A DNA stretch of 64,000 nucleotides from a virus. The DNA is taken from the IMG/VR virus record IMGVR_UViG_3300027782_000032, positions 64,001 through 128,000 of that record; one strand, given 5' to 3'. The notes under the pieces are model-generated. The model was not told the origin of the DNA and made no database searches. It worked only from the letters and a program-made list of their open reading frames with translations. A program made the position numbers and the translations under genes. Numbering within the stretch: position 1 is the stretch's first letter; every line of letters starts with the position of its first letter. Shown here piece by piece: positions 2 to 41,090 of the stretch.

Positions 2-3000
2 ACCAACCATGTCTACGTTTGACGCAAGAAGCTTTCTCTGAAGAACGCCATACTTTGGATTGTCACCAAAGACTTGCTTTAGTATTCCCTTAACATTCTT
101 CTGTTCTAGCTTTGGATTGGCGGAGTCTCCAAGTCCAGTAACTGCTTTAAATGAGTCGTATAAAGCTAGCCTGTGGTCTGACAGATTTGAAAAGCTCTTA
201 GAAGCTTCTTTCATTTCATTGTTAGAGTCGATTAACTCCTTGTAAAGATAGTTAGCGTCTCCAACCATAGGCAACCCACTTTGTTGCATAACGCTTACAG
301 GCCTGAACAAAGGAGGAAGCACTGGAACCTTGCTCATCATCCAGTCAGAAGGATGCATCTTAAGGCTCTGAGCTGTTTTAAGATAACCAAGCTTGCGCAC
401 AGCTGTGTCACGATACGACTTCTTACCTGAGGCTATCTGAGCCCTAGCTTTTATAAGCTCTTGGTCAACGTTTATCTTTTTAAGGGCTGAGCTGATTGCT
501 TCAGGTCCTTTAACACCGTTAAGCTCTTCCTTTCCAGAAAGAACGTCTCTAAACTTGTTCTCAGTAAGCCCTAGAATTCTTCTAATAGGCTCTTCCATGA
601 CTGGGTTAGGCATAGATTCGTGCAGCTTAACGTGGCTCCACATAGTGCCGCCATGACCTCCTGTTAGCCTGTTATCAAAAAGGCCATCACCAGCAGGCTT
701 CATTCCGTTTTCCCAGTCTACTGTATCTGATCTCTTAATTTCTCTATCACCGGACAGAGCGTCAACGTCTTTGTCGGTCATAGCCATAAGCTGTGTCTTA
801 GATCCATTTCTAACTGGGTTGATTCCAGCTCCTTGAAGCTGAGCCATAAACTTTCGGTAGGTCAGCGGGACCCTTGGTATAGGTAAAGACTTTCCAGTCA
901 TAAACGCTGCCCAGTAGTCGTCATTCTTCTGTCCCCTAATCGACCCAGCGTCCCTTAGAACCTCATGAGCACCATGAGATAGAAGTGCATTAACATCCAT
1001 AAGAGCCATGCGCTTGCTGCCTTCTTCTCCACCTTTTGCTGGAGTTTCCTCTGCAGTGTATCCGCTAGCTATACCGCGGCCTTGTCCTTTAGACTCTGAG
1101 GTATGGTGAAGCTTCATAAAGAACCTGTTACCAGTGAAGATGTTCTTTATCTTCTTACCTGATTCTGGGTCTTCGATGTCTTCCATGTCGCTAAGGTTGT
1201 TTTGCTTAAGCTCATTTATTGCAAACTCTGTAAGGTCATTAATGTTATCAAAGTCTTTTATAGCGTAGCGCTTTCCTGTCTTCTCAGCAACTTTTCCAAG
1301 AGCTGCCTCTACCATCTGGCTTGGATTGGTTCTAGTTATAACCCCTAGTGGATTAAGAAGTATTTCAAAAGGTCTACCTTGCGCGTCTCTAGGCATTTTA
1401 TCTTCTGGTATAACTGCAGCTATAACACCCTTATCTCCATACCTTCCAGAGAGCTTGTCACCTTCTTTCATCGGGTTAAGACTTTTAACAGTTACCGAAT
1501 ACCCCTTTTTAGTTTGAGCTATGTCAGTTACTATTCCTTCGTTCTCGTGATCCCATGTAGTTGTTGCGTTTGTAAACCCGTTACGTGATCTTCCAACCTG
1601 CTGATTATGGGCTCTTGACAGTATGTTAGCTTGTAAGATAAGTGGGTCACCTTTTCTTACAACTGTGCCAGCCTTTATAACACCGTTGTCATCCATGCCA
1701 GACAGGGCTTCCTTAGAGTACTCAGAAGGAAACAGAGTTAAAAAAGGCTTCTTTCCATGCTTTGAATCGTCGCCAAGCTCAGCCTCATGCTGGTACATAT
1801 GCTCTGACGTTAATCTCTTTGCTGCGCCTTCAGATATGACAATCGCGTCTTCAAAGTTGTATCCTTTGTAAGGTATGTACGCCGACCTTAGATTTGTACC
1901 TAAAGCAGCTGTACCTTTATCGTCAGTATAGTTAGACCTAGCCAATAGGTCTCCATTTCCAACTACATCTCCTACTTTTACGGTAGGCGTATTGTGCAAA
2001 AACGTCTTACGATTGAATGGAAGATTGTTGTAAATCTCTTTCTTATGCAGCTGTCCGTCATCACCCCTAATGTGTATCTCGTCTCCATCCACTTTTATAA
2101 CCTGTCCTGCTACGGTAGACCTTACAGCACCCATGTGGCCGCCATAAGATTCTTCATAAGACTTATCGTCTTCGTCTGGCATTCCCGATTGCACATAAGG
2201 AGATTCTGGGTTTTGAAGGGGTAGCGCCTGCGTAAGCATTCTAGCGCCCATCATAACTCTCTGGCCTTTAGTTGCGCTCTTAAGAGGAATCATGTTTGCT
2301 AAGTGGTTAAAGGAGCTTTCCATTCTTGGAAGCTCGTAGTTAACGTCTTTCCTGTCTACGTACTTGATCTTTCCGTTGACCAGTGCAGCTATCTTATTAT
2401 TGGTTTTGTCTGCCATTTGATTTGGAAAAGCTATTGCAGATCCTGCAAGCTCTTGAGGAGTTTTCCATGCGTCTTCTCCTGTATTGACGTCTCTAAAGCT
2501 ACCATAAACCTTTCCGTCTATGCCCTTACGAGAGTTGATAGCTATTCTGCTATCCACTCCAACCTTAAGAGACTCAGGAGTTAATAAAGGGTCTACAAAC
2601 CCGAAGTGAGATGGCTGCACATTACGAGCTTCTTCTGGCACTGATTGAAGAGAAGGTATACCACCCTCTCCAAGTCTACTAACCCTAGTTATCTGATTAA
2701 GCAAGTCGGCTGGGTTGACCTCTTCAAGAGGCTGACCAAGTCCGCTAGTCATAATAGCGCCATTTATCTGAGAGTCTAGAAACCCAGGAGCAAAAGAGCT
2801 TAGGTTCTTTTTAAAGCTGGCTTTCCATAGCAGCGGCCTCATTACTCTATGGGCTACCTTTACCCTTTCTGAAAATAGGTCTTCTGGCCCTATCATAGAC
2901 TGGTACGACATAGCGTCACGGTCGTCTGGATCTTGTTCTTTCCTATGAACTGCAAGCAGTTTTTTTGTAGCTGCTATGATAGAGTCTGCTGAAACATTGG

Positions 3001-3865
3001 CAAACGGGCTACCAAGTGTCCGTGAGTTAACCTCTGGGTCCATCTCCATCTTTGACATAGCCTCAATCACCGACTTCTTCCTGCTCTCAGGAGTGACTAC
3101 GTCGCCTGGCTTTGATTTAGCTATTCTGTTGAATATTTTATCAAGATGGCTTGGGTCGTCTGTATCAGCGTTGGCTTGGTATATTTCATTACCCCAAGCT
3201 TCTCTCAGCTGCTTGTCGCTAGCGCCCAAAGCCTTAAGAAGTGGAGTTATAGGAACAGAAGACTGACCGAATCCTATAGAAAAAACTCCTTTAGCTGGGT
3301 CAAGCGAGTATCTATGCGATGCGCCTTTTCCAGGCATTATGTTTGCGTGACTCTCTACGTCACCGCTATTTGTAACTCTTGTGAACACTCCAGGCTTAAG
3401 TCGCATCTGATTTGCCAGCGTGTACTCTGTGCCTTTTACTATAAACGTTCCCCTGTCTGTAAGATAAGGAACCTTGGCTAGAGTTGTTCTCTTAGAATCT
3501 AAGACCTCGCCTGTCTCATTATCTGTAAGGTTAAGAGTACCCTTTAGGCTTCTGCTAAGAGTGTTACCTTTTAAGATAGCTTCTTTCTGTGACTTAATTG
3601 ACTTAGTTTCTTCTTCGTCATTCCAGCCAACTTCAGCAATGCTTAAAGTGTGCCTTTGATTTACTAAAGGCTGAATGCCAGCTGCAGACGCTTGAACTCC
3701 TCCGAATATAGCAGCTCTAGTAGCTGCTACATCATCAAACCGACGCATGGTTGGCGGTGGCGCTACTGGCTTTAAAGGAGCCTTAGAACTAACCAAGCCG
3801 ACTGGCTTGCTTAGCGTCGGCTCTGGTATTAGGTTGTCTTCATCGTCTGAGAATATTCCAGCCAT
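2..3865 (-). CDS. rpoBC: Multisubunit DNA-directed RNA polymerase, beta-beta' fusion (3' end runs off the window)
   Basis: Absent from the ORF track, consistent with an open frame running off the left edge. My translation from ATG 3865 gives beta motifs GDKLSGRYGDKGVI, GGEEGSKRMALMDVNALLSHGA and VPLTYRKFMAQLQGAGINP, then beta' motifs DGLFDNRLTG, WMMSKVPVLPPLFRP and KYGVLQRKLLASNVDMVG at the window edge. Confidence 0.92.
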   Translation of the reverse strand, partial: MAGIFSDDEDNLIPEPTLSKPVGLVSSKAPLKPVAPPPTMRRFDDVAATRAAIFGGVQASAAGIQPLVNQRHTLSIAEVGWNDEEETKSIKSQKEAILKGNTLSRSLKGTLNLTDNETGEVLDSKRTTLAKVPYLTDRGTFIVKGTEYTLANQMRLKPGVFTRVTNSGDVESHANIMPGKGASHRYSLDPAKGVFSIGFGQSSVPITPLLKALGASDKQLREAWGNEIYQANADTDDPSHLDKIFNRIAKSKPGDVVTPESRKKSVIEAMSKMEMDPEVNSRTLGSPFANVSADSIIAATKKLLAVHRKEQDPDDRDAMSYQSMIGPEDLFSERVKVAHRVMRPLLWKASFKKNLSSFAPGFLDSQINGAIMTSGLGQPLEEVNPADLLNQITRVSRLGEGGIPSLQSVPEEARNVQPSHFGFVDPLLTPESLKVGVDSRIAINSRKGIDGKVYGSFRDVNTGEDAWKTPQELAGSAIAFPNQMADKTNNKIAALVNGKIKYVDRKDVNYELPRMESSFNHLANMIPLKSATKGQRVMMGARMLTQALPLQNPESPYVQSGMPDEDDKSYEESYGGHMGAVRSTVAGQVIKVDGDEIHIRGDDGQLHKKEIYNNLPFNRKTFLHNTPTVKVGDVVGNGDLLARSNYTDDKGTAALGTNLRSAYIPYKGYNFEDAIVISEGAAKRLTSEHMYQHEAELGDDSKHGKKPFLTLFPSEYSKEALSGMDDNGVIKAGTVVRKGDPLILQANILSRAHNQQVGRSRNGFTNATTTWDHENEGIVTDIAQTKKGYSVTVKSLNPMKEGDKLSGRYGDKGVIAAVIPEDKMPRDAQGRPFEILLNPLGVITRTNPSQMVEAALGKVAEKTGKRYAIKDFDNINDLTEFAINELKQNNLSDMEDIEDPESGKKIKNIFTGNRFFMKLHHTSESKGQGRGIASGYTAEETPAKGGEEGSKRMALMDVNALLSHGAHEVLRDAGSIRGQKNDDYWAAFMTGKSLPIPRVPLTYRKFMAQLQGAGINPVRNGSKTQLMAMTDKDVDALSGDREIKRSDTVDWENGMKPAGDGLFDNRLTGGHGGTMWSHVKLHESMPNPVMEEPIRRILGLTENKFRDVLSGKEELNGVKGPEAISSALKKINVDQELIKARAQIASGKKSYRDTAVRKLGYLKTAQSLKMHPSDWMMSKVPVLPPLFRPVSVMQQSGLPMVGDANYLYKELIDSNNEMKEASKSFSNLSDHRLALYDSFKAVTGLGDSANPKLEQKNVKGILKQVFGDNPKYGVLQRKLLASNVDMVG

Positions 3866-3866
3866 T

Positions 3867-4934
3867 TTAGGCCTCTTCTGAAAGTTGTTCGTTAACGTCG
3901 CTTTTTGGAGTTAGAGTTTTTTTCTTTTTGTTTACTTTAACAGGAACAGGTACTGAGTAAATCGGCATGCCCTCAGATTGTCTTCTAGTTAAAAACTCAT
4001 TTAAATACCTCTGATGCTCAAGTTCCTCTGGATCGTTATTCTTAGCATGAGTGTACCCTGTGTTTGTGCCGATTGCTCCAGCTCCTAAAGCTAGAGCTCC
4101 TGCTAAACCTAAATACCCAGTTGCATAAGGTTTAACAGCTGTAAAAGCTTGACTTCCTAAGTTTTTAAGATCTTCAAGTGTAGGAAGCATATAGTTTCCT
4201 ACTGCTGAGGCTCCTTCCATAGCCTTATTACCGACATAGCTAAACGCGTTTTGTAATGGGCCTGGAGGAGCTTCTGCTTTCTTTTCTTTAGTAACATGCA
4301 AACATAAGCTAGCCAACTTTTCTAAATCTTGAGCTAGTGTAGTAGACTTAGCTTCTGCTTTTTTTTGACCAAAGAACCCAGGCTTACCGGTTGCTTTAAC
4401 AGGTTCAGGCAGCCTGTTTGAATGAGCTTCTACTAAAGCCTCTCCAAACTCACGCTTAGCATCTTCTAACTCTTGAGCAGCATCTCTTTTTCTTTTTTCT
4501 CTAAATAGGTGATTAATAACTCCGTATCCTGTTCCTAGGCCAGCACCTGTAGCTGCAACTAGAGCAGGGGCATAGGCCATATTAGCCAAGTCCTCTGTTT
4601 TCCACTCTGATTGCTTTTCATTTTCTGTGTCTTTTATAGATACACCACTCCCTGGGCTAAATGGCTTATACTTACTACCCTTACCCCTTGCCTTACGCGC
4701 TTGTCTTTTTTCAACATTGTAAGAGGCTCCAGGTAAGGCCTCCTGCCCAGGAACGGGCACTTCTATAGTGTTGTTTCCAGGAGTGCCTGTACTAAACGCT
4801 TTGTTGTCTAAGCCACTATTAAAAGAGTTAAGTAGATGTTTAGTTCCAGCAATACCGCCTCCAGCAAGTAAGCTGAATAGTCCTACTCTTTTTAGGTTGT
4901 CCCATTGATTGTCGTCAAAGTATTGATCTGGCAT
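3867..4934 (-). CDS. Hypothetical protein with Gly/Ala-rich hydrophobic segments (possible virion protein)
   Basis: 355-aa ORF; stop is 1 nt from the RNAP start; several GxxxG-rich hydrophobic stretches. Function is inference. Confidence 0.7.
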   Translation of the reverse strand: MPDQYFDDNQWDNLKRVGLFSLLAGGGIAGTKHLLNSFNSGLDNKAFSTGTPGNNTIEVPVPGQEALPGASYNVEKRQARKARGKGSKYKPFSPGSGVSIKDTENEKQSEWKTEDLANMAYAPALVAATGAGLGTGYGVINHLFREKRKRDAAQELEDAKREFGEALVEAHSNRLPEPVKATGKPGFFGQKKAEAKSTTLAQDLEKLASLCLHVTKEKKAEAPPGPLQNAFSYVGNKAMEGASAVGNYMLPTLEDLKNLGSQAFTAVKPYATGYLGLAGALALGAGAIGTNTGYTHAKNNDPEELEHQRYLNEFLTRRQSEGMPIYSVPVPVKVNKKKKTLTPKSDVNEQLSEEA

Positions 4935-5288
4935 TTAAGTTCTCCTGTTAGGTGCTAACTTTCCTTGAACGTCAGCCCACTCCATGTGAATACTAAGCTT
5001 CTTATCTTCTGAAATAATCTTAGTTCTGTCTATAATTACACAAGCCCTGTTAGCAGCTAAATCTCTAATTTTAGTATACTCTTTAAGTTCTTCAGGATCG
5101 CTAAGATCAAATATCTTAACTTTAACATCATACTGAAGCGGTATATTCTCATACTCTTCTTGAGTAGTGTTTGGAGCCATTGGGCCGCCTAGTATAGGAA
5201 AACCTTGAGAGGTAGTCCCAGACAGCTGTCTATATTTAACACCTACACCACCAAGCCCAAACTGATTTAAAATACTAGAATCTCTCAT
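4935..5288 (-). CDS. Hypothetical protein
   Basis: 117-aa ORF, AGGA upstream, abuts the next gene. Confidence 0.7.
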   Translation of the reverse strand: MRDSSILNQFGLGGVGVKYRQLSGTTSQGFPILGGPMAPNTTQEEYENIPLQYDVKVKIFDLSDPEELKEYTKIRDLAANRACVIIDRTKIISEDKKLSIHMEWADVQGKLAPNRRT

Positions 5289-5299
5289 ATTAGTCCTTT

Positions 5300-6187
5300 C
5301 TAATACCTAGTAACACCTGAAATTCCTCTGTCTCGTTCTCGTCTACGTTTAGCCATCTCCGTCTGTCGTTTAATAAGTGTTGCCTGCCTATCGTACTCGT
5401 TTGTAAGCTCCTCGTTTAACATCTCTTCTCTAGATGGAATAGGAGCCTTGGTTACGTTATGCAAACCTGGTCCAACTACTTGGTTTCCTAAGTAGTACCC
5501 GCCTGCACCCGCTGCTGTAAGGCCTGCCAAGCCTACAAGAGGAATAGAGCCTAGTTGTCCAAGAATACTAAGATCAAGAGCCCTCTTCTCTGCAAAGTAC
5601 AGAGCTTGTTTTACTCGTATCTTTATCTCATCAAGGTTGAGGCCTTCATCAATGCACTTGGCCAAGAAGGCTACTTTAAACATTTGCTTATCGTCCATCG
5701 CTGCTCCTTGCTTTCCTAGAGTAGGTTTGGTAGCTGCAGTAGGGGTTACAGTACCTTTGTTTAAATCTACAGAAGCCCCACCTTTAACTGGCTTTATAGT
5801 CTGACCAGACATTGCAGTCATAGGAAGTCCAGCTAATCCTGCACTGCTAGCGCCCATTAAAGACCCAGCAAACGAAGCTGCGTCAGCAGGAGCTACTCGA
5901 TTGGCTCCTAACTGGGCAGGAGGGGCGCTTGGCCCAACTATTGGAATAGACTTGTCTATAAGTTTATTGCTAAAAGAACTATCATTTAAAGGGTATCTAG
6001 CTACTGCTTCCCTAGTCTTAGCGTGAGCTGCTGAGTTAAATATTTCTTTTGTGTAATTTCTTTTAGAGGTTAAAAGATTCTGTGTGTTTACAGGTAGCTT
6101 ACCCCAGCCGTTGTAAGGCTCAGTAGGCTGCCTTCCTGGAGCTATAGCTTCTGCGTTAATCTGAGCTTGGGTCTTAACTGGAGGCAT
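5300..6187 (-). CDS. Hypothetical protein with a C-terminal Gly-rich hydrophobic segment
   Basis: 295-aa ORF in a tightly packed operon. Confidence 0.7.
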   Translation of the reverse strand: MPPVKTQAQINAEAIAPGRQPTEPYNGWGKLPVNTQNLLTSKRNYTKEIFNSAAHAKTREAVARYPLNDSSFSNKLIDKSIPIVGPSAPPAQLGANRVAPADAASFAGSLMGASSAGLAGLPMTAMSGQTIKPVKGGASVDLNKGTVTPTAATKPTLGKQGAAMDDKQMFKVAFLAKCIDEGLNLDEIKIRVKQALYFAEKRALDLSILGQLGSIPLVGLAGLTAAGAGGYYLGNQVVGPGLHNVTKAPIPSREEMLNEELTNEYDRQATLIKRQTEMAKRRRERDRGISGVTRY

Positions 6188-6191
6188 GGTG

Positions 6192-6560
6192 TTATCCTAG
6201 TATGATTCCTGAGTTGGTTACACCCTTTGGTACGCTAGCTCCAGTTGACCAGATCTTTCGGTTGTCGTGTGCTAGCTGAGCAGCTACCTTTGGGTCTGTA
6301 GGGTCGCCCTGCTCTTTAGCTTCTTGAATACATAGCATAATGTCTCTAGCCGCTGCAATAATCTGAGTCTTCTCGTCTTGATGCTGAACTCTGGTAGACT
6401 CTTCAAACAAGGCTTTTGCTCGCCTTCTCATTACCGAGGTAGGCTCGACCTTATCAGATCCGTCTCTATTATCATGAATGTTTATGAGGCCACCTTCAGC
6501 CCAGAACTCAATCTGGTTGTATTTATATGTCTTCTTAATGATTAAAGCCGGAACGTCCAT
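6192..6560 (-). CDS. Hypothetical protein
   Basis: 122-aa ORF with a purine-rich RBS-like sequence (AAAGGGA) upstream. Confidence 0.7.
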   Translation of the reverse strand: MDVPALIIKKTYKYNQIEFWAEGGLINIHDNRDGSDKVEPTSVMRRRAKALFEESTRVQHQDEKTQIIAAARDIMLCIQEAKEQGDPTDPKVAAQLAHDNRKIWSTGASVPKGVTNSGIILG

Positions 6561-6620
6561 TTATTATCCCTTTCAGTTAAAACACAATACTACACTAATT
6601 TAAGCTTGTTGTCACTTAGC

Positions 6621-7940
6621 TTATTGACCAAAGAACCCAGGAACCACAGCTTTAAGTGCACCAGCCACAACACCAGCTCCCTGCAAAGTTCTTTGAGCCT
6701 GTGGAGTCAAGCCTACCAAAGCTCCTAATACTTTTCCACCCAAAGTAGCCTGAACATATCCAGCTCCCATGCCTATGCCAACCCTAGCTATGTCCATAGG
6801 AGTAATAAAGCCAGTGCCTCCTCCCATGCTGTTAGCTGCACTGACAACGCCCATAGTAGCTGCCTGCATATAAGGAGGAGAGAAAGGATCATTAAGAACA
6901 AGCCTATTGAAAGCGTCTACAGGCACAGGGGCTAGGCTTATTCCGCCTCCACCAAAGAAGTTAGATGACTTCTGCATCTCTTCAGATATCTCTGGCTGAA
7001 TCTGAGATAACGCTTCAGAAGCCTTAGTTATAGTTGAGTTTCCAAATATTACGTTTGGTGATGTGAAAGCTTTTATAGAGTTAGAATCCCTATCAGGATT
7101 GCTTTTAGCGTCCCAAGTGTGCATGCCTATTCCACCCATTGCAGCACCTGGAAGAGCACCTACAAGACCGCCTAGCATAGCCATTCTCTTTCTTAGCTTG
7201 CCCTTTTCAAATACTCCAGGGGCTATGTTCTCAGCTATGGTACCTGCTCCGTAGCCTAAGCCAGCAGTTAAGGCGCCACCAGCGATCATGGAAGCTAAAG
7301 GAGTAGGTCCACCTATATGGTCTGAGAACTTTGAAGGCTTAAGCATGAAGGCCTGAGCAACTGGACCAAGCACGCTAGACACCAAGGTGTCACTAGCACA
7401 CTTAACTAATATCCAAGGAGAGTTAAGGTTTGGCTTTCCAACCTTGTTGCTAACTCCTGCCTTCTCAAGAGTAGTGGAGACGTCTCCACTCTCGACAAGT
7501 ACTTTGTCAGATGTTGGACTGATCCACGCGTGCGTACGTGGTAAAAGAGCCCTAGCAACTTTTTCATAAACTTCTTTTGACGCTAAAACATAAGTATTTA
7601 CTAGGTCTGGAACGTAACTCCAAGCCAAGTCTTCAGCAATTTTATCCATCCGTTCTTGCCTCGAAATTGAAGAGGGGATAATATCCCTAGGAGCATGGAC
7701 CTTGAATGAAGTTGGAACGTGCGTTATCCCTACAAACTTTTTGTTAAGATCGGAATCTATGACAAAGTCTTCTGGCTTATCAACTAAAAGATTCCTCAAT
7801 ATTTTGTTCTTTTCATGATAGTTACGCTGATCAGACATCTGCTTGGCTCTAAGCAGCAGGTGAAGATCAGTCTTGGGATTGCGTTCTTCTTGAACTGGCA
7901 TTAGAAGGTCCTCCATCACGATAGTACCAACTCTTGGCAT
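6621..7940 (-). CDS. Hypothetical protein with multiple Gly/Ala-rich hydrophobic segments (possible virion protein)
   Basis: 439-aa ORF; contains one copy of the 14-bp palindrome in frame (SGDVST). Confidence 0.72.
   Translation of the reverse strand: MPRVGTIVMEDLLMPVQEERNPKTDLHLLLRAKQMSDQRNYHEKNKILRNLLVDKPEDFVIDSDLNKKFVGITHVPTSFKVHAPRDIIPSSISRQERMDKIAEDLAWSYVPDLVNTYVLASKEVYEKVARALLPRTHAWISPTSDKVLVESGDVSTTLEKAGVSNKVGKPNLNSPWILVKCASDTLVSSVLGPVAQAFMLKPSKFSDHIGGPTPLASMIAGGALTAGLGYGAGTIAENIAPGVFEKGKLRKRMAMLGGLVGALPGAAMGGIGMHTWDAKSNPDRDSNSIKAFTSPNVIFGNSTITKASEALSQIQPEISEEMQKSSNFFGGGGISLAPVPVDAFNRLVLNDPFSPPYMQAATMGVVSAANSMGGGTGFITPMDIARVGIGMGAGYVQATLGGKVLGALVGLTPQAQRTLQGAGVVAGALKAVVPGFFGQ
7475..7488. 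repeat. Iterated palindrome TGGAGACGTCTCCA, copy 1 (in CDS; 18-bp perfect palindrome 7473-7490)
   Basis: Read directly from the sequence. Confidence 0.95.
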
Positions 7941-8019: not shown

Positions 8020-10284
8020 ATGGTTACTGCTGGAGTTAAGAAGTCTTTAAGTTTAGAGTCTAGGAAAGTAAAGAAAAGGAACGGAAACGTAGTAGCGTTT
8101 GAAGCCACTAAGATTGCATCAGCCGTTGAGAGATGCTTTAAAAACGGACTACAAAGCACAGATGAAGAAGCTCAAGTTGCAGGAGTTAAAGTCTCTAAAG
8201 CCGTTGCTAACATCCTAAACAAGAAGGTTGACGAAGAACCTATAGAAGTTGAAGCACTTCAACATACGGTAATTCAACAGCTATGGGCTTTAGGGTACTT
8301 TGAAGGCGCTGAACACTACACCATATTTAAAGAAAAAAGAAAGCAAGAAAGAGTAAACCATCCAGTAGACCCAGAGCTGAGGCGTCTGGTGGATGAAGAT
8401 AACAACTACTTTCCATCTGCGCTTCAGTACTACCAGTTCATCAGCAAGTTCTCAAAGTGGAACGAAGAACTTGGAAGAAGAGAAACTTGGGGAGAATGCG
8501 TAAACCGAGTAATGAGTTTCTTTGCAAAGCAGGACTTTGCTGAAAAGGTTACCAAGCAAGAGTTCAAAGAACTTAAAGAGTATCTGCAGCGAATGGACGC
8601 CACTCCAGCAATGCGAGTTATTCAGATGGCTGGAAAGGCATTAGATAGGTGCCACGTTGGAGTATACAACTGTAGCTACATGCCAATCACTGACATCAGA
8701 TCGTTCAGTGAGTTACTTTATATTCTCATGCAAGGTACTGGCGCTGGCTTCTCAGTAGAGCGTCGGTATGTTGAGCAGCTGCCTGCTGTAAAAAGACAGA
8801 CTGGCAAGCCACCAGCAAAGATGGGAATCATCGATACAACCGAAGGATGGTGCGATGCCCTCTACGCAGGTATGGAAGCTTGGTTCAATGGTAAAGACAT
8901 TGAGTTTGACTTCAGCAAGATCAGACCAGCTGGAGCAAGACTCAGCATTAAAGGAGGTAGGGCTAGCGGTCCTGATCCTCTCAAAACACTGCTACAGTTT
9001 GCAAGGACGCTTATTCTATCTAGGCAGGGTCGGTCACTTAGCGATGTAGACTGTCATGACCTAGCCTGCATGACTGGAAAGATCGTGCAAGTAGGTGGAG
9101 TTAGAAGAGCTAGTGAGATCTCGCTTAGCGACCTTGACTCTAAAGACATGAGACTGGCTAAGAGCGGAAACTGGTGGGAGAGCAGTATACATCGAACTAT
9201 GGCTAATAACTCAGCCGTATACGATAGCAAGCCTACCTCTATAGAGTTTATGGAAGAGTGGCTATCTTTAGCTAAGAGCGGGTCAGGAGAGCGTGGCATC
9301 TTCAACAGGGATGGCGTGCTTAGGACTCTACCTGAAAGAAGGCAGCCAAGAGACTTCGGCACTAACCCTTGTGCTGAAATTATTCTTAGACCTTATCAGT
9401 TTTGTAACTTGTCTATCGTGGTCGCTAGACACGATGACACTGCTGAGACTCTTAAAAAGAAAGTACGCATAGCTACTATCTTTGGAACTATGCAAGCCTG
9501 CCTGACAGACTTCAAGTACATTCGAAGAGAGTGGAAAGATAACTGCCAAGAAGAAAGGCTACTAGGAGTAGACATCACTGGACAGATGGACTGCCCACTG
9601 CTAAGACCTGGCTCTGAAGGCAGAGATGATCTCCTTAAAAAGCTAAGGTCTGTGGTAGCTAAAACTAATACAGAGTTTGCTGAAAGGTTTGGAATTGGCC
9701 GAGCAGCTGCAGACACTTGTGTTAAGCCATCTGGAGACAGTGCAGTTTTATTTGGATGCTCTTCTGGCATTCATGCTAGGTTCTCTGAGTATTACATCAG
9801 ACGAGTTAGAGAAAGAGCTGATAGCCCTGTAGCTAACATGCTAAGAGACGCTGGAGTTCCTTGGATTCAAGCACCTGAAGATCAGTCGCTTGTATGCTTT
9901 GAGTTTCCATGTGCATCGCCAGAAGGAGCTATTACAAAGGATCAACAAACAGCACTAGAGCAGCTAGACAACTGGATGACTTGGAAGCTTAACTGGGCTG
10001 AGCACTCGGTATCAGCTACTGTGTATCTTGAGCCTAACGAGTGGCTAGATGCAGGACATTGGGTGTATCGTAACTTTGATGCTATCTCTGGCATTAGCTT
10101 CTTACCTAAGAACAATGGCACCTACACAGGAACGCCATACGAAGAGATAGATAAGAATGAGTACACAAGCAGGGTAAACACTTTTCCAAAGATCGACTGG
10201 GCTAAGCTCTCTAGGTACGAGAAGACTGACCATACAGAGTCGTCTCAAACCTACGCTTGCACCGGCGGCGCATGTGAACTGTAA
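8020..10284 (+). CDS. nrdJ: Class II (adenosylcobalamin-dependent) ribonucleotide reductase with N-terminal ATP cone
   Basis: ATP cone (VKKRNGNVVAFEATKI), YNCSY, GTGAGFS, GGVRRASEI, TNPCAEI, FCNLS, KPSG, C-terminal CTGGAC; GGAGG RBS; no nrdB partner nearby. Confidence 0.92.
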   Translation: MVTAGVKKSLSLESRKVKKRNGNVVAFEATKIASAVERCFKNGLQSTDEEAQVAGVKVSKAVANILNKKVDEEPIEVEALQHTVIQQLWALGYFEGAEHYTIFKEKRKQERVNHPVDPELRRLVDEDNNYFPSALQYYQFISKFSKWNEELGRRETWGECVNRVMSFFAKQDFAEKVTKQEFKELKEYLQRMDATPAMRVIQMAGKALDRCHVGVYNCSYMPITDIRSFSELLYILMQGTGAGFSVERRYVEQLPAVKRQTGKPPAKMGIIDTTEGWCDALYAGMEAWFNGKDIEFDFSKIRPAGARLSIKGGRASGPDPLKTLLQFARTLILSRQGRSLSDVDCHDLACMTGKIVQVGGVRRASEISLSDLDSKDMRLAKSGNWWESSIHRTMANNSAVYDSKPTSIEFMEEWLSLAKSGSGERGIFNRDGVLRTLPERRQPRDFGTNPCAEIILRPYQFCNLSIVVARHDDTAETLKKKVRIATIFGTMQACLTDFKYIRREWKDNCQEERLLGVDITGQMDCPLLRPGSEGRDDLLKKLRSVVAKTNTEFAERFGIGRAAADTCVKPSGDSAVLFGCSSGIHARFSEYYIRRVRERADSPVANMLRDAGVPWIQAPEDQSLVCFEFPCASPEGAITKDQQTALEQLDNWMTWKLNWAEHSVSATVYLEPNEWLDAGHWVYRNFDAISGISFLPKNNGTYTGTPYEEIDKNEYTSRVNTFPKIDWAKLSRYEKTDHTESSQTYACTGGACEL

Positions 10285-37927: not shown

Positions 37928-38755
37928 TTAGAGTGACCCTGGGGGCATGTATGGAAAGTCGGAGTCTGAATCATCATCTTCATCGCCAAACTCTTCGTCT
38001 TCTTCCAACTCCTCGTCAGTAGGGGCTCTGAACACGAAGTTTGCTTCCGATATCAACTCAAGCCTTGGCAGCTTTGGAAATATAATCCTCATAGCTTGCC
38101 TTATCTTTTCAACATCGTTGCATATCTCACAATCATCGGGGTCATTGACTCCTATGTCAACAGTTATCTCCATATAAGAGTCGGATGGATCGGAATCATA
38201 GCCTGAATCCTCCATATCCTGATCTTCATTAAAGGAGTAATCGCTGTCACTGTCTGAGTCACTATCGCTGTCTGAATCGCTATCGTATCCTGGCTCGCCT
38301 TCTCTACCCTTATGATCACCTAGGTCGTAGTCAACATGCCATTCTGAACTCTCAGAATCAGAGTCGCTATCTGAATCGCTGTCTGAGTCAACCTTGTCAT
38401 TACCAAGAATGCCAAGAGCCTCTTCCATCTGGTCGTCTGACATGTAAGGCTTAGTGGAGACGTCTCCACTGGATGGTATAATAGCTGAGCACTGCATAAA
38501 CAGAGGACCTACTGCTCCCTTAGTCTGGGAGTCCTTTACTGTCTTCTCAAAGTACTCTGATAGCTTGTACTTAGACTTGAAGCCTTTCTCATATAGTATC
38601 TTGATGATCTCCATGGAGTCATACACGGCTATAGTTCCGCTAGCTGGAGCTGGCACTACACCAACAAAAGCTCTGTCAAACCCTTTCATGAGCTTGATGT
38701 TAGGGTATAGCTTAGTTATTGCCTCTGCTGTCATGTGGTTTCGCTTATGCTTCAT
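37928..38755 (-). CDS. Highly acidic protein with (DS)n repeats
   Basis: Globular N-terminus (KGFDRAFVGV...AVYD), then two DSDSDS tracts and an E/D-rich tail. Confidence 0.7.
   Translation of the reverse strand: MKHKRNHMTAEAITKLYPNIKLMKGFDRAFVGVVPAPASGTIAVYDSMEIIKILYEKGFKSKYKLSEYFEKTVKDSQTKGAVGPLFMQCSAIIPSSGDVSTKPYMSDDQMEEALGILGNDKVDSDSDSDSDSDSESSEWHVDYDLGDHKGREGEPGYDSDSDSDSDSDSDSDYSFNEDQDMEDSGYDSDPSDSYMEITVDIGVNDPDDCEICNDVEKIRQAMRIIFPKLPRLELISEANFVFRAPTDEELEEDEEFGDEDDDSDSDFPYMPPGSL
38455..38468. repeat. Iterated palindrome copy 5 (in CDS; 18-bp perfect palindrome)
   Basis: Read directly from the sequence (SGDVST). Confidence 0.95.
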
Positions 38756-41090
38756 CGCTATCCTCCTCAGATTCTTCGCTACCTTTAAGCACTTGGGTCA
38801 GAGCTAACACCGCTGGCACAGTCATACCACCAGCTATTAAAGCTTTTTGCAATGACGATAGCCCAGCAGGCGTTATCTTTTCTTTGATTTCTTTTACTAT
38901 CTCTTTAGCTGGGGGTTGAGCTTCCCCTTTTTGAGGTTGAGCTACCCCTTTTTGAGGTTGAGCTACCCCTTTTTGAGGTTGAGCTTCCCCTTTTGCTGGC
39001 TTATTAGTAGGTGGGAAGTAAGCGTCTGGATTGGTAGCGTCGACGTTCTTCCTAGTTATAGCCTTTAATATCTCTGGGCCCTCGTTTGCAGCTATTAAAC
39101 CTGGCGTAGATACTGCAGTTCTTGCTGCAGCCATGGGAGCAGCCTTTACAGCTTTAGTTGCGTTAAAGTTCTTAAGAGCCTTTAAAACAGCTGCTGGGCT
39201 ATCTTTTATATTTTTAAGCAGCTCTGGAATAGACTTTAACGATCTAGGACTTGCCAAACCACCTATGCCAGCTACTAAGTCTGCGTTAGGAATGTCTGCT
39301 GAATGAGCTCCAAATCCAAGAATTCCTTGCCCAAGAGCAATTGCTCTTCCGACAGGGGTTAAAGCTAAAGTATCAAAGAGTGTTTCTGTGCCTTTTTCTA
39401 ACGTACTTTTAGATGGGTTAAACAAAGGTAACGGGTCTACGCTTCCCACCGTAGAGTTGTTAGCTAAATCTTTTTGATTTTTATTGTTTAGATCTACAAG
39501 TGCTTTAAGCCTTTGCTTGTCTTCGTTTCTAGATACAGGGTCTGGATTTCGAAGTATTCGAGTGTCTAGTTCTTTAATTGCCTTGGCAGTATCTTGAATT
39601 CTTGTGTCGCTATCAATTACTTCCCTTGAGCTGTCTACTCCTTGTATAACCTTATTACCATTAAAAGGAGTGTTGTTAGATGTCGGTGGAGGAAGATTAG
39701 GTATAGGAACTTCAGGATCGATTCCAGGTACCAAACTTCCTAACGTCTTTGCAATATTAGTTAAAGAGTTGCCTATACCGCCTGCATAAAGAACGCCTTT
39801 ATCTACACCTTTAGAGCCAAATACAGGCTCGTAAGCTGGTCCACTGTCAAGGCTAGCTTTGTTAGTAGCATTGATTACCATTCGTTTGAGTATTGCGTCC
39901 TTATGCTCTTTTGGTAATCCCTCAAACGCACTTCTTATCTCAGGTGGAAGGTCAGTTAAATCGCCTGTCCTGTACTTATGAGAATGGTTGACTATGGCCT
40001 GAGCTAGGTCGCTTCTTCCTGCATCGCTAGCGCTTAGCCCAGACTTAGCAGCTCTAGCTCTAACATCGGCAAGCCTATTTGCGTTTATTAACTCTTCATT
40101 TGTCTTGTACTTTATAACAGGCTTCGCATCAGGAGGAGGAACAGGAAGAGCAGGAACATTTGAAGATAACGAAGCGCCAACTGGAACACTGTTCTGTGGA
40201 GTAGTTGTCTTTCCTCCAGAGGCTAAGAACTCTTCATACTTTTTATTAATGTCATCGCTGCCTGATTGAGCTGCTGCTGTGTTACTTATTCTATTAAGAG
40301 TCTCGCTTAGGTTCTTGTTAGCTACAGCAGCCTGCTCTGCTGTTTGAAACGTCCTTGGAGGAGGCGTAGGTGCAACTGTAGGAAGGTTTCTTACAGCGTC
40401 TTGAGCTTGAGCCCTTGATGTAGCGTTGCTAATACTGTCGCTAAGGTTCCTATTAGCTTCTCCAGCTTGAGTGCTATTAGGTATAAAAGGTGAAGGAGTG
40501 GGAGATGGCGTAGGTGTAAGGAAAGATGACACGCCATTCGCTAAGCTAGAGGCCAGACGGCCCTTACCTTCAGCTGCTAAGTTCTCTCCAAAGCTGCTTA
40601 ACAGCTTACCAAACCCTGATTCAGCGAAAGGTTTGGACGCGCTGTACTGTTTGTATGAGTTTACTAAGTTTTTAGAGTAATCAGCAGCAGCTGGGAATGC
40701 TTCCATAACCTTGGGAAGCGCTGCAGATGTCAAAGCTGACAGCAATTTGAACGATGCAGCCTTTATAACCTCAGATCTTTGACTAGTGTAATTTTGATCA
40801 GTGTACGCCTGGGCACGCAAACCTCCTAAATTATCATAAGCAATGATTTTATAAGGAGTTACGTCGGATTGGGTGGCTGTTTTATTAAGATTACCACCTA
40901 CGAGAGGCTGTGACAACTGTTTTTTCTTTAAAAAAGGATTAGTTGTCTTATCTCCTAGCTGGGTCTGCTCTTTCGGTTTGTTAGATAACCTAGAAGCACC
41001 TATGCCCATAGGCTTTAAGCCCCTAAAACTGCCACCTAAAGCCCCAGAAAGGGATATACCAGCCTGCTTATCACCTTGATTCAATGACAT
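38745..41090 (-). CDS. Large low-complexity protein (possible virion protein)
   Basis: 781 aa, P/S/T/A-rich, C-terminal hydrophobic segment. Confidence 0.72.
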   Translation of the reverse strand: MSLNQGDKQAGISLSGALGGSFRGLKPMGIGASRLSNKPKEQTQLGDKTTNPFLKKKQLSQPLVGGNLNKTATQSDVTPYKIIAYDNLGGLRAQAYTDQNYTSQRSEVIKAASFKLLSALTSAALPKVMEAFPAAADYSKNLVNSYKQYSASKPFAESGFGKLLSSFGENLAAEGKGRLASSLANGVSSFLTPTPSPTPSPFIPNSTQAGEANRNLSDSISNATSRAQAQDAVRNLPTVAPTPPPRTFQTAEQAAVANKNLSETLNRISNTAAAQSGSDDINKKYEEFLASGGKTTTPQNSVPVGASLSSNVPALPVPPPDAKPVIKYKTNEELINANRLADVRARAAKSGLSASDAGRSDLAQAIVNHSHKYRTGDLTDLPPEIRSAFEGLPKEHKDAILKRMVINATNKASLDSGPAYEPVFGSKGVDKGVLYAGGIGNSLTNIAKTLGSLVPGIDPEVPIPNLPPPTSNNTPFNGNKVIQGVDSSREVIDSDTRIQDTAKAIKELDTRILRNPDPVSRNEDKQRLKALVDLNNKNQKDLANNSTVGSVDPLPLFNPSKSTLEKGTETLFDTLALTPVGRAIALGQGILGFGAHSADIPNADLVAGIGGLASPRSLKSIPELLKNIKDSPAAVLKALKNFNATKAVKAAPMAAARTAVSTPGLIAANEGPEILKAITRKNVDATNPDAYFPPTNKPAKGEAQPQKGVAQPQKGVAQPQKGEAQPPAKEIVKEIKEKITPAGLSSLQKALIAGGMTVPAVLALTQVLKGSEESEEDSDEA
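38914..38994 (-). repeat. 21-bp tandem repeat, about 4 units, encoding QKG(E/V)AQP
   Basis: GGTTGAGCT(T/A)CCCCTTTT repeated at a 21-bp period. Confidence 0.9.

What the first reader, a model, noticed from the sequence alone, without database searches (positions are those of the whole stretch)
2..3865. Phage RNA polymerase with beta and beta' fused in one reading frame
Seen: the beta C-terminal motif (about 820-880) continues without a stop into beta' N-terminal motifs, in an ORF of at least 1288 aa. Established: cellular beta-beta' fusions occur in Helicobacter and Wolbachia, whereas phiKZ-like phage RNAPs are split into several subunits. The motifs are diverged (GRYGDKG for GRHGNKG; ASNVDMVG for GKRVDYSG), arguing against recent host capture.
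Basis: partly seen in the sequence, partly recalled or inferred. Interest (0 to 1): 0.7.

Follow-up and report, generated by a model that had tools for sequence, protein, structure and literature searches.

The report
Two-chain phage RNA polymerase, beta fused
An uncultured 190-kb phage makes its only RNA polymerase from two proteins: all of subunit beta joined to the front half of beta-prime, and the back half of beta-prime separately. It also has its own sigma factors, and no paper I could find describes this widespread layout.

Summary
On the minus strand, an ORF runs from window 3865 past the window start. In the whole 190,371-bp virus record it is 1485 aa long.

It contains a complete bacterial-type beta (aa 1 to about 1018) and an 8-residue linker. 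The N-terminal half of beta-prime follows, up to the catalytic GADFDGDA and 85 residues beyond. So the fusion is real but partial. The beta-prime C-half, with bridge helix and trigger loop, is a separate 639-aa gene 4 kb downstream.

The junction is not an artefact:
- Two other metagenomes assembled the same DNA.
- More than 150 cluster representatives keep the junction open.

In a tree the fused chains form one clade, far from 30 bacteria of 15 phyla.

The enzyme lacks both zinc sites and all cysteines. No alpha or omega gene is found. The genome also encodes:
- an SNF2 helicase;
- a Cys-free sigma-70-family protein, modelled onto the beta-prime clamp helices;
- a second sigma-like protein.

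In Salmonella phage Arash, homologues of the fused chain, the beta-prime C-half, the Cys-free sigma and the helicase are abundant in virions. A packaged, injected holoenzyme is therefore likely but unproven here.

This scan has found the same layout on other phage DNA several times. I found no paper describing it.

The parts
2..3865 (-). In-window part (aa 1-1288) of the 1485-aa fused beta/beta-prime-N gene. The gene continues to genome 63408, 592 nt before the window start.
   Evidence: Pfam Rpb2_3, Rpb2_6 and Rpb1_1. Rpb1_2 lies just outside the window.
812..3865 (-). Complete beta module, aa 1 to about 1018. It includes GRYGDKG at window 1427-1447 and the C-terminal helix at window 812-841.
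   Evidence: phmmer matches bacterial beta chains nearly end to end. For example, cyanobacterial beta 74-1075 of 1100 aligns with aa 99-1039, E 1.8e-69. The beta C-terminus aligns to Thermus aquaticus beta 1096 of 1119.
788..811 (-). Junction: linker of about 8 residues (aa 1019-1026) between the last beta helix and the first conserved beta-prime residues.
   Evidence: Alignment with bacterial beta-prime N-termini. The AlphaFold2 model shows a tight hairpin here, block pLDDT 80-93. The junction region is conserved, in one open frame, in all 29 aligned family members.
2..787 (-). In-window part of the beta-prime N-half (aa 1027-1288).
   Evidence: phmmer matches cyanobacterial gamma 179-552 of 624 and beta-prime chains, E 8e-50 to 1e-45.
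623..691 (-). Site where the beta-prime N-terminal zinc ribbon is missing: a 32-residue deletion between the GLF motif and the MGHIEL-equivalent.
   Evidence: MAFFT alignment with five bacterial beta-prime N-termini. The deletion is shared with Arash and Vibrio phage D69. The chain has 0 Cys.
134..259 (-). Beta-prime clamp helices (coiled coil, aa 1203-1244), the predicted docking site of the phage sigma.
   Evidence: Helices 644-665 and 670-684 of the model. These are the interface residues in the complex prediction.

Best explanation
The ORF encodes the large chain of a two-chain, bacterial-type multisubunit RNA polymerase of an uncultured tailed phage of about 190 kb.

Shown:
- One polypeptide of 1485 aa carries a complete beta, an 8-residue linker, and the N-terminal half of beta-prime.
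- That half holds the clamp, the clamp helices and the catalytic barrel with ADFDGD. The zinc ribbon is deleted.
- A separate 639-aa protein supplies the rest of beta-prime, including the bridge helix and the trigger loop with its His. Its second zinc site is also lost.
- This is the only RNAP set found in the genome. No alpha or omega gene was found.
- The genome encodes an SNF2-type helicase directly downstream, a Cys-free sigma-70-family protein, and a second sigma-like protein with a region-4 match.

Inferred:
- The two chains form the catalytic core.
- The beta/beta-prime tether takes over the assembly role that the alpha dimer has in bacteria.
- The phage sigma docks on the clamp helices and directs the core to phage promoters of the two-element sigma-70 kind.
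- The core, the Cys-free sigma and the helicase are packaged in the capsid and injected with the DNA to start early transcription. The homologous proteins of Salmonella phage Arash suggest this.
- The second sigma would then redirect newly made enzyme later in infection.
For: Architecture:
- ORF and motifs.
- Pfam beta and beta-prime domains in one frame.
- PDB sequence matches to beta and then to beta-prime or gamma along one chain.
- Junction and zinc-ribbon deletion.
- Beta-prime C-half as a separate gene starting at the equivalent of M. tuberculosis beta-prime residue 663. Bridge helix and trigger loop are kept and the Zn2 cysteines are gone.
- AlphaFold2 model of aa 560-1485: mean pLDDT 84.3, pTM 0.71.
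- Its best structural matches are bacterial beta chains and cyanobacterial gamma. No jumbo-phage RNAP is in the top 50.

Reality of the fusion:
- Identical DNA in two other samples.
- 120 close clusters and 150 representatives all carry the fusion.
- Arash gp206 (1525 aa) and Vibrio phage D69 gene 0261 (1527 aa) match in one piece to the last residue.
- All 120 best longer relatives of the beta-prime C-half lack beta and beta-prime-N domains.

Single set, no alpha or omega.

Sigma:
- Sigma70_r3 match at 26.9 bits.
- The family profile matches SigA, RpoD and RpoS across regions 2-4, E 2e-10.
- Second sigma: Sigma70_r4 at 48 bits.

Docking:
- Complex model score 0.71, best of 3 controls 0.00.
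- That mark was reached by 58 of 80 solved complexes and 2 of 110 mismatched pairs.
- The runs agree in at least 55% of contacts, and partner pLDDT is at least 69.
- The interface is the clamp helices (aa 1203-1243) against sigma residues 49-89.
- Sigma/beta-prime complexes are solved, so this pass may come from memory. It shows likeness, not binding.

Virion packaging:
- In Arash, gp206 is the most detected protein in purified particles (3516 spectra). gp216, sigma gp10 and helicase gp217 are also present (PMC10585845).
- This genome has homologues of all four.
- The four transcription proteins have 0 Cys in 2896 residues, against 1.36% genome-wide.
- That trait is shared by 24 of 29 fused chains and 27 of 27 sigmas of the family. 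In Arash, gp4, gp10 and gp217 have no Cys and gp206 has 1 in 1525.

Promoters: ten copies of a conserved two-element motif lie on the coding strand only.
Against: - No experiment or read-level data exist for this phage.
- Packaging is inferred from a relative with only 31% identity. The Arash authors themselves note that abundant infection-phase enzymes might merely contaminate particles.
- Absence of alpha and omega rests on Pfam six-frame searches. These would miss a diverged or structurally analogous subunit, and use of host alpha and omega is not excluded.
- The record is estimated to be 92% complete.
- That the tether replaces alpha is an idea, not a result.
- Which polymerase and which sigma read the ten promoter-like motifs is unknown. 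Host sigma-70 holoenzyme could read them.
- The tree has a long branch and composition bias, and lacks Campylobacterota and Rickettsiales. It cannot tell ancient origin from fast evolution.
Confidence: 0.7

Rival explanations
1. Same two-chain enzyme, but not packaged. It is made after infection and transcribes middle and late genes, while host RNAP reads the sigma-70-like early promoters.
For: - The ten conserved motifs resemble ordinary sigma-70 promoters: a -35-like element, a spacer and CATAAT.
- The Arash authors allow that abundant enzymes may be carried over into particle preparations.
- Only one RNAP set exists, so it must in any case serve the later phases.
Against: - In Arash the homologue gives more spectra than the major capsid protein: 3516 against 1333.
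- The transcription proteins are cysteine-free against a 1.36% background. In Arash, gp4, gp10 and gp217 have no Cys and gp206 has one.
- The genes sit among homologues of virion proteins.
Confidence: 0.25
2. The phage chains form a hybrid enzyme with host alpha dimer and omega, and possibly host sigma, rather than a self-sufficient core.
For: No alpha or omega gene was found. The enzyme is close enough to bacterial RNAP that the beta and beta-prime surfaces could still fit them.
Against: - Identity to bacterial subunits is only 24-33%.
- Reviews report that other phage multisubunit RNAPs do not stably bind host alpha, sigma or omega (PMC13282480).
- The phage brings its own sigma-family proteins.
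Confidence: 0.15
3. The fusion is an assembly or sequencing artefact: a lost stop or frameshift between adjacent rpoB-like and rpoC-like genes.
For: In many bacteria rpoB and rpoC are adjacent. In some of the fetched loci they are even in the same frame, separated by a single stop.
Against: - The same DNA was assembled in other samples.
- The junction is conserved in 29 aligned relatives at 44-90% identity, in all 150 representatives, and in cultured phages Arash and D69.
Confidence: 0.01
4. A recently captured cellular rpoBC fusion of the Helicobacter or Wolbachia kind.
For: Cellular full fusions exist (established knowledge).
Against: - Beta-prime is split here.
- The zinc ribbon is deleted.
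- Identity to all bacteria is 24-33%.
- The phage clade is separated from all sampled bacteria by a long, fully supported branch.
Confidence: 0.02

Closest known systems
Salmonella phage Arash gp206 + gp216 (with sigma gp10 and helicase gp217); OQ632216, PMC10585845
   Same: - gp206 (1525 aa) matches aa 4-1485 in one piece and ends at the same point.
- gp216 (606 aa) matches the 639-aa beta-prime C-half.
- Homologues of gp10 and gp217 are present.
- The zinc-ribbon deletion and the low Cys content are shared.
   Different: - Identity is only 25-34%.
- Gene order differs. Here the helicase follows the fused gene; in Arash it follows gp216.
- The paper calls gp206 simply 'subunit beta' and does not mention a fusion.
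- Arash was cultured on Salmonella. This phage is known only from metagenomes.
Vibrio phages D69, D148 and D181 (OZ195729 and others)
   Same: A 1527-aa gene matches aa 93-1288 of the window part in one piece. A 609-aa gene two genes downstream has the size and place of the beta-prime C-half.
   Different: The genes are annotated 'hypothetical protein'. In D148 and D181 a homing endonuclease interrupts the gene.
Bacterial RNAP core subunits beta and beta-prime (for example Thermus 4G7H, B. subtilis 6WVJ)
   Same: - Same domain order and the same catalytic motifs.
- Bridge helix, trigger loop and clamp helices are present.
- These are the best sequence and fold matches.
   Different: - One chain carries beta plus half of beta-prime.
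- Both zinc sites are lost and there is no cysteine.
- The enzyme is smaller: beta about 1018 aa, beta-prime about 460 + 639 aa.
- There are no alpha or omega genes.
Helicobacter/Wolbachia RpoBC fusion
   Same: The beta C-terminus is joined head to tail to the beta-prime N-terminus by a short linker.
   Different: Those chains carry the whole of beta-prime and belong to cellular lineages. Here beta-prime is cut after the catalytic barrel, and the protein is far from all sampled bacteria.
Cyanobacterial and plastid split beta-prime (gamma/RpoC1 + RpoC2; 8SYI)
   Same: Beta-prime is cut between the catalytic barrel and the bridge helix. Gamma is among the best fold matches for the beta-prime part, with TM 0.60 by target length.
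   Different: - The cut lies about 65 residues earlier. The chain ends at about gamma residue 559 of 624, before the TTxG motif that opens the phage C-half.
- Gamma is not fused to beta.
- The one cyanobacterium and one melainabacterium in the tree do not group with the phage.
phiKZ/AR9-type jumbo-phage multisubunit RNAPs (PMC7598289, PMC7824862)
   Same: Phage-encoded two-barrel RNAP without alpha or omega. A virion-packaged version exists, and an SF2 helicase is linked to the RNAP genes.
   Different: - Those enzymes split beta into 2-3 pieces and beta-prime into 2.
- They come as two sets and have no sigma homologue by sequence.
- Here beta is whole and fused, there is one set, and sigma-70-family genes are present.
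- Similarity is weak: 23-27% over parts of beta.
mReC metagenomic phages (Weinheimer and Aylward 2020, PMC7481178)
   Same: Uncultured tailed phages whose RNAP is close enough to cellular RNAP to match COG0085/COG0086. It branches apart from all cellular lineages, and the RNAP genes lie among virion genes.
   Different: Their tables list beta and beta-prime as separate genes (for example 1361 + 1006 aa). The paper mentions fusion only for crAss-like phages. Whether this contig belongs to mReC could not be tested.

Membership tests
Two-barrel multisubunit RNAP, bacterial type (beta/beta-prime) | Beta catalytic barrel with the conserved Lys motif (GRHGNKG type) and Rpb2 domains | tested here: met
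   GRYGDKG at aa 807-813. Rpb2_6 scores 169 bits against a cut-off of 23.4, and Rpb2_3 scores 27.3 bits.
Two-barrel multisubunit RNAP, bacterial type (beta/beta-prime) | Beta-prime catalytic barrel with the three-aspartate motif | tested here: met
   GADFDGDA at aa 1393-1400. Rpb1_2 scores 85 bits summed over the frame.
Two-barrel multisubunit RNAP, bacterial type (beta/beta-prime) | Bridge helix and trigger loop | tested here: met
   Both are in the separate 639-aa chain and align to Thermus beta-prime 1017-1111 and 1174-1384, with the trigger-loop His kept.
Two-barrel multisubunit RNAP, bacterial type (beta/beta-prime) | Alpha dimer and omega subunits | tested here: not met
   The six-frame Pfam searches for RNA_pol_A_bac and Rpb6/omega found nothing, while all 14 control genomes matched. 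Diverged analogues or host subunits are not excluded.
Two-barrel multisubunit RNAP, bacterial type (beta/beta-prime) | Two zinc sites of beta-prime | tested here: not met
   The zinc ribbon is deleted. The Zn2 cysteines are replaced. Both chains have 0 Cys.
Full RpoBC fusion (Helicobacter/Wolbachia type) | Complete beta and complete beta-prime in one chain | tested here: not met
   The chain ends 85 aa after the catalytic motif, and the C-half is a separate gene.
Full RpoBC fusion (Helicobacter/Wolbachia type) | Nests within the cellular clade that carries the fusion | tested here: inconclusive
   The chain is not nested in any of 15 sampled phyla.
Cyanobacterial-type split beta-prime | Cut at the gamma/beta-prime boundary, after the TTxG motif | tested here: not met
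   The chain ends at about gamma residue 559 of 624, and the C-half begins with MLKTTIGQ.
phiKZ/AR9-type phage RNAP | Beta split into 2-3 and beta-prime into 2 polypeptides; two paralogous sets; no sigma homologue | tested here: not met
   There is one Rpb2_6 locus and beta is unsplit. Sigma-family proteins are present.
Arash-like two-chain phage RNAP | Beta + beta-prime-N chain of about 1500 aa ending at the same point, plus a separate beta-prime C-half, a sigma and an SF2 helicase | tested here: met
   tblastn of gp206, gp216, gp10 and gp217 gave E values of 0, 6e-38, 1e-16 and 5e-67.
Arash-like two-chain phage RNAP | Presence in purified virions | not testable with these tools
   Shown only for Arash by mass spectrometry. 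Here it is supported indirectly by the cysteine-free composition.
Sigma-70 family (for the 275-aa partner) | Regions 2, 3 and 4 in order | tested here: met
   The profile of 27 homologues aligns to SigA, SigB and RpoD from region 2 through 4.2, E 2e-10 to 1e-7. Sigma70_r3 is above its cut-off. The Pfam region 2 model alone did not match.

The most novel reading that the evidence does not exclude
This is a self-sufficient minimal bacterial-type holoenzyme made of two core chains plus a sigma-70-family factor. It has no alpha, omega, zinc or cysteine.

It is stored in the capsid, threaded through the tail with the DNA, and reassembles in the host. The beta/beta-prime-N tether replaces the alpha-dimer assembly platform. 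The absence of cysteine and zinc would be an adaptation to unfolding, transit and refolding.

It would be the first sigma-70-dependent virion RNA polymerase. It would also be an exception to two statements in reviews: that phage multisubunit RNAPs lack sigma, and that sigma-encoding large phages lack their own RNAP.
Probability: 0.35. Interest if true: 0.8.

Novelty: new variant of a known kind. Interest (0 to 1): 0.6.

Why it matters
Reviews up to 2026 describe phage multisubunit RNA polymerases as fragmented, sigma-less enzymes of phiKZ-like jumbo phages. They describe sigma-encoding large phages as dependent on host polymerase.

This enzyme breaks both patterns:
- It is far closer to bacterial RNAP.
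- It is repartitioned into two chains in a way seen in no cell.
- It is stripped of alpha, omega and zinc.
- It is paired with its own sigma-family proteins.

The family is very large in metagenomes and has cultured members (Arash, Vibrio phages), so it can be studied at the bench.

It offers three things:
- a natural minimal bacterial-type RNAP for work on assembly and sigma recognition;
- a test of whether a covalent tether can replace the alpha platform;
- a probable new kind of injected transcription machine.

For annotation, genes of this family are currently labelled 'subunit beta' or 'hypothetical protein'.

Tried and rejected
- **Read support across the junction.** Independent assemblies were compared instead.
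- **Other RNAP subunits.** The six-frame Pfam searches found no alpha, omega or Sigma70_r2. A search for a T7-like single-subunit RNAP found nothing, but its control genomes also gave nothing, so that answer is uninformative.
- **Neighbouring genes.** Pfam and PHROGs on nine neighbouring ORFs and the 1730-aa Cys-free ORF gave no functional information.
- **Literature.** Searches for a described phage beta/beta-prime fusion found only crAss-like and P23-45 enzymes and the split jumbo-phage RNAPs.
- **mReC paper.** Its supplement does not list a 190,371-bp contig and shows beta and beta-prime as separate genes. Membership of this contig in mReC was left open.
- **GTDB genomes.** The scan returned only ordinary bacterial rpoB-rpoC loci, all unfused, and no close relative that could hint at a host.
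- **Full fusion within the close family.** This idea was rejected. None of the 120 best longer relatives of the beta-prime C-half carries beta or beta-prime-N domains.


Full report
**Where and what**

The window is bases 64001-128000 of a 190,371-bp IMG/VR virus record, estimated 92% complete. Of 186 long ORFs, 177 lie on the minus strand.

The finding's ORF is on the minus strand. It starts with ATG at window 3865, one base after the stop of the upstream gene, and is open to window 2, giving 1288 aa. On the whole record it continues 592 nt further, to 1485 aa at genome 63408-67865.

**Check of the observation**

Pfam finds Rpb2_3 (aa 380-445), Rpb2_6 (aa 587-934, 169 bits) and a weak Rpb1_1 match (aa 1168-1224) in the window part. 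Rpb1_2 lies just beyond the window edge.

- GRYGDKG at aa 807-813.
- The beta C-terminal helix ending at aa 1018, window 812-841.
- ASNVDMVG at window 2-25.

Against the PDB, aa 99-1039 match bacterial beta nearly end to end. Then aa 1093-1483 match beta-prime or cyanobacterial gamma.

**The junction**

The last conserved beta helix aligns to Thermus aquaticus beta residue 1096 of 1119. Eight residues later the chain aligns with the native N-terminus of bacterial beta-prime. This is a tight head-to-tail fusion at window 788-811.

The same alignment shows a clean 32-residue deletion that removes the beta-prime zinc ribbon. Arash and Vibrio phage D69 share it.

An AlphaFold2 model of aa 560-1485 has mean pLDDT 84.3 and draws the junction as a confident hairpin. 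Its best structural matches are bacterial beta chains and cyanobacterial gamma.

**The fusion is partial**

The chain stops 85 residues after the catalytic aspartates. The rest of beta-prime is a separate 639-aa gene at genome 57691-59610.
- It begins at the equivalent of M. tuberculosis beta-prime residue 663.
- It keeps the bridge helix and the trigger loop.
- The second zinc site is replaced by non-cysteine residues.

The cut lies about 65 residues before the cyanobacterial gamma/beta-prime boundary.

None of the 120 best longer relatives of this C-half carries beta or beta-prime-N domains. Many instead carry unrelated extensions.

**Not an artefact, not a one-off**
- The exact protein is on five contigs.
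- Contigs from two other samples differ by 0 and 1 bases over 12.86 kb.
- The 120 nearest clusters (52-99% identity) all have beta and beta-prime-N domains in chains of about 1460-1500 aa, or longer where inteins are inserted.
- The best 150 representatives at 50% clustering all keep the fusion, with lengths up to 3350 aa because of inteins.
- Cultured phages Arash (gp206, 1525 aa) and D69 (1527 aa) have the same chain with the same end.

Read mapping could not be done.

**Origin**

All 80 bacterial loci fetched have separate rpoB and rpoC and are 24-33% identical to the phage chain.

The tree used 15 fused chains and 30 bacteria of 15 phyla, with 1461 columns under LG+C20+F+G4 PMSF. The phage chains form one clade (SH-aLRT 100). 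All bacteria lie on the other side of a branch of about 3.8 substitutions per site, which joins the bacterial backbone at an unresolved deep node.

Caveats:
- The branch is long and composition is biased.
- Support is SH-aLRT only.
- No Campylobacterota or Rickettsiales were included, and there is no outgroup.

Recent capture from a host is excluded. Ancient origin and fast evolution cannot be told apart.

**Partners**
- **RNAP sets.** There is one Rpb2_6 locus, so one RNAP set.
- **Alpha and omega.** None was found.
- **Helicase.** A 497-aa SNF2-type helicase starts 2 nt after the fused gene's stop codon.
- **First sigma.** A 275-aa protein at genome 24176-25003 matches Sigma70_r3. Its family profile aligns to SigA, RpoD and RpoS over regions 2-4, E 2e-10.
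- **Second sigma.** A 237-aa protein at genome 157023-157736 has a strong region-4 match.

A complex model of the beta-prime N-half with the 275-aa sigma scored 0.71, against 0.00 for the best of 3 controls.
- That mark was reached by 58 of 80 solved complexes and 2 of 110 mismatched pairs.
- The runs agree in at least 55% of contacts, and partner pLDDT is at least 69.
- The interface is the clamp helices (aa 1203-1243) against sigma residues 49-89.
- Such complexes are solved for bacteria, so the pass shows likeness to them, not that this pair binds.

**Packaging**

In Arash, gp206 is the protein with the most spectra in purified particles. gp216, sigma gp10 and helicase gp217 are also detected (PMC10585845). 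Homologues of all four are present here.

A first-stage note on this genome pointed out that the transcription proteins lack cysteine, and I confirmed it.
- They have 0 Cys in 2896 residues, against 1.36% genome-wide.
- The trait is family-wide. In Arash, gp4, gp10 and gp217 have no Cys and gp206 has 1 in 1525, whereas the non-virion sigma gp196 has three.
- Here too the second sigma has three Cys.

This fits a division into an injected set and a later sigma, but it is inference.

**Promoters**

Ten copies of a conserved motif with a -35-like element, a spacer and an extended CATAAT lie on the coding strand only. They are compatible with a sigma-70-family factor. Whether the phage or the host factor reads them is unknown.

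**What is known**
- The Arash paper calls gp206 'subunit beta' and does not mention a fusion.
- Reviews describe phage multisubunit RNAPs as split and sigma-less.
- The mReC paper reports deep-branching phage RNAPs with beta and beta-prime as separate genes.
- I found no paper that describes this layout.
- Earlier follow-ups of this scan reached the same reading on other phage genomes.

**Verdict**

The layout is a new variant of the bacterial-type RNAP, and this phage is one more member of a large uncharacterised phage family that shares it.

Noticed in passing
genome 27959-33151 (outside the window) and window 38745-41090, minus strand: Two further large ORFs (1730 and 781 aa) have no cysteine at all and no Pfam match. 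The 1730-aa ORF also has no PHROG match. They may be other ejected virion proteins, like the Cys-free gp4 of Arash.
   Followed up: partly
window 10547, 11232, 12296, 42710, 43240, 44219, 44702, 45365, 56522; also genome 183459: Ten copies of a conserved two-element promoter-like motif (TTAATyC, spacer, GyGTCATAAT), all on the minus strand. Most lie ahead of small genes. Three are directly preceded by the palindrome GGAGACGTCTCC.
   Followed up: partly
genome 157023-157736, minus strand (outside the window): A second sigma-family gene (237 aa, Sigma70_r4 at 48 bits) with three cysteines, unlike the Cys-free 275-aa sigma at genome 24176-25003.
   Followed up: partly
relatives P0021, P0025, P0123-P0195 and others; Vibrio phages D148 and D181: The fused RNAP gene of relatives is heavily invaded by inteins (LAGLIDADG and intein-splicing domains, chains up to 3350 aa). 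One recurrent site is right after the catalytic DFDGD motif. In D148 and D181 a homing endonuclease gene interrupts the gene. The copy in this window has none.
   Followed up: no
relatives P0358-P0477 of the beta-prime C-half: In many related phages the beta-prime C-half is 1120-2000 aa and carries extra non-polymerase parts (PF18905, kinase-like PF13671/PF13238). Here it is a minimal 639 aa.
   Followed up: no
window 8020-10284, plus strand: A class II (B12-type) ribonucleotide reductase with an ATP-cone. It is one of only 9 of 186 long ORFs on the plus strand.
   Followed up: no
window 3867-7940, minus strand: Five tightly packed ORFs (355, 117, 295, 122 and 439 aa) directly upstream of the RNAP gene have no Pfam or PHROG match. 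They are likely co-transcribed with it.
   Followed up: partly
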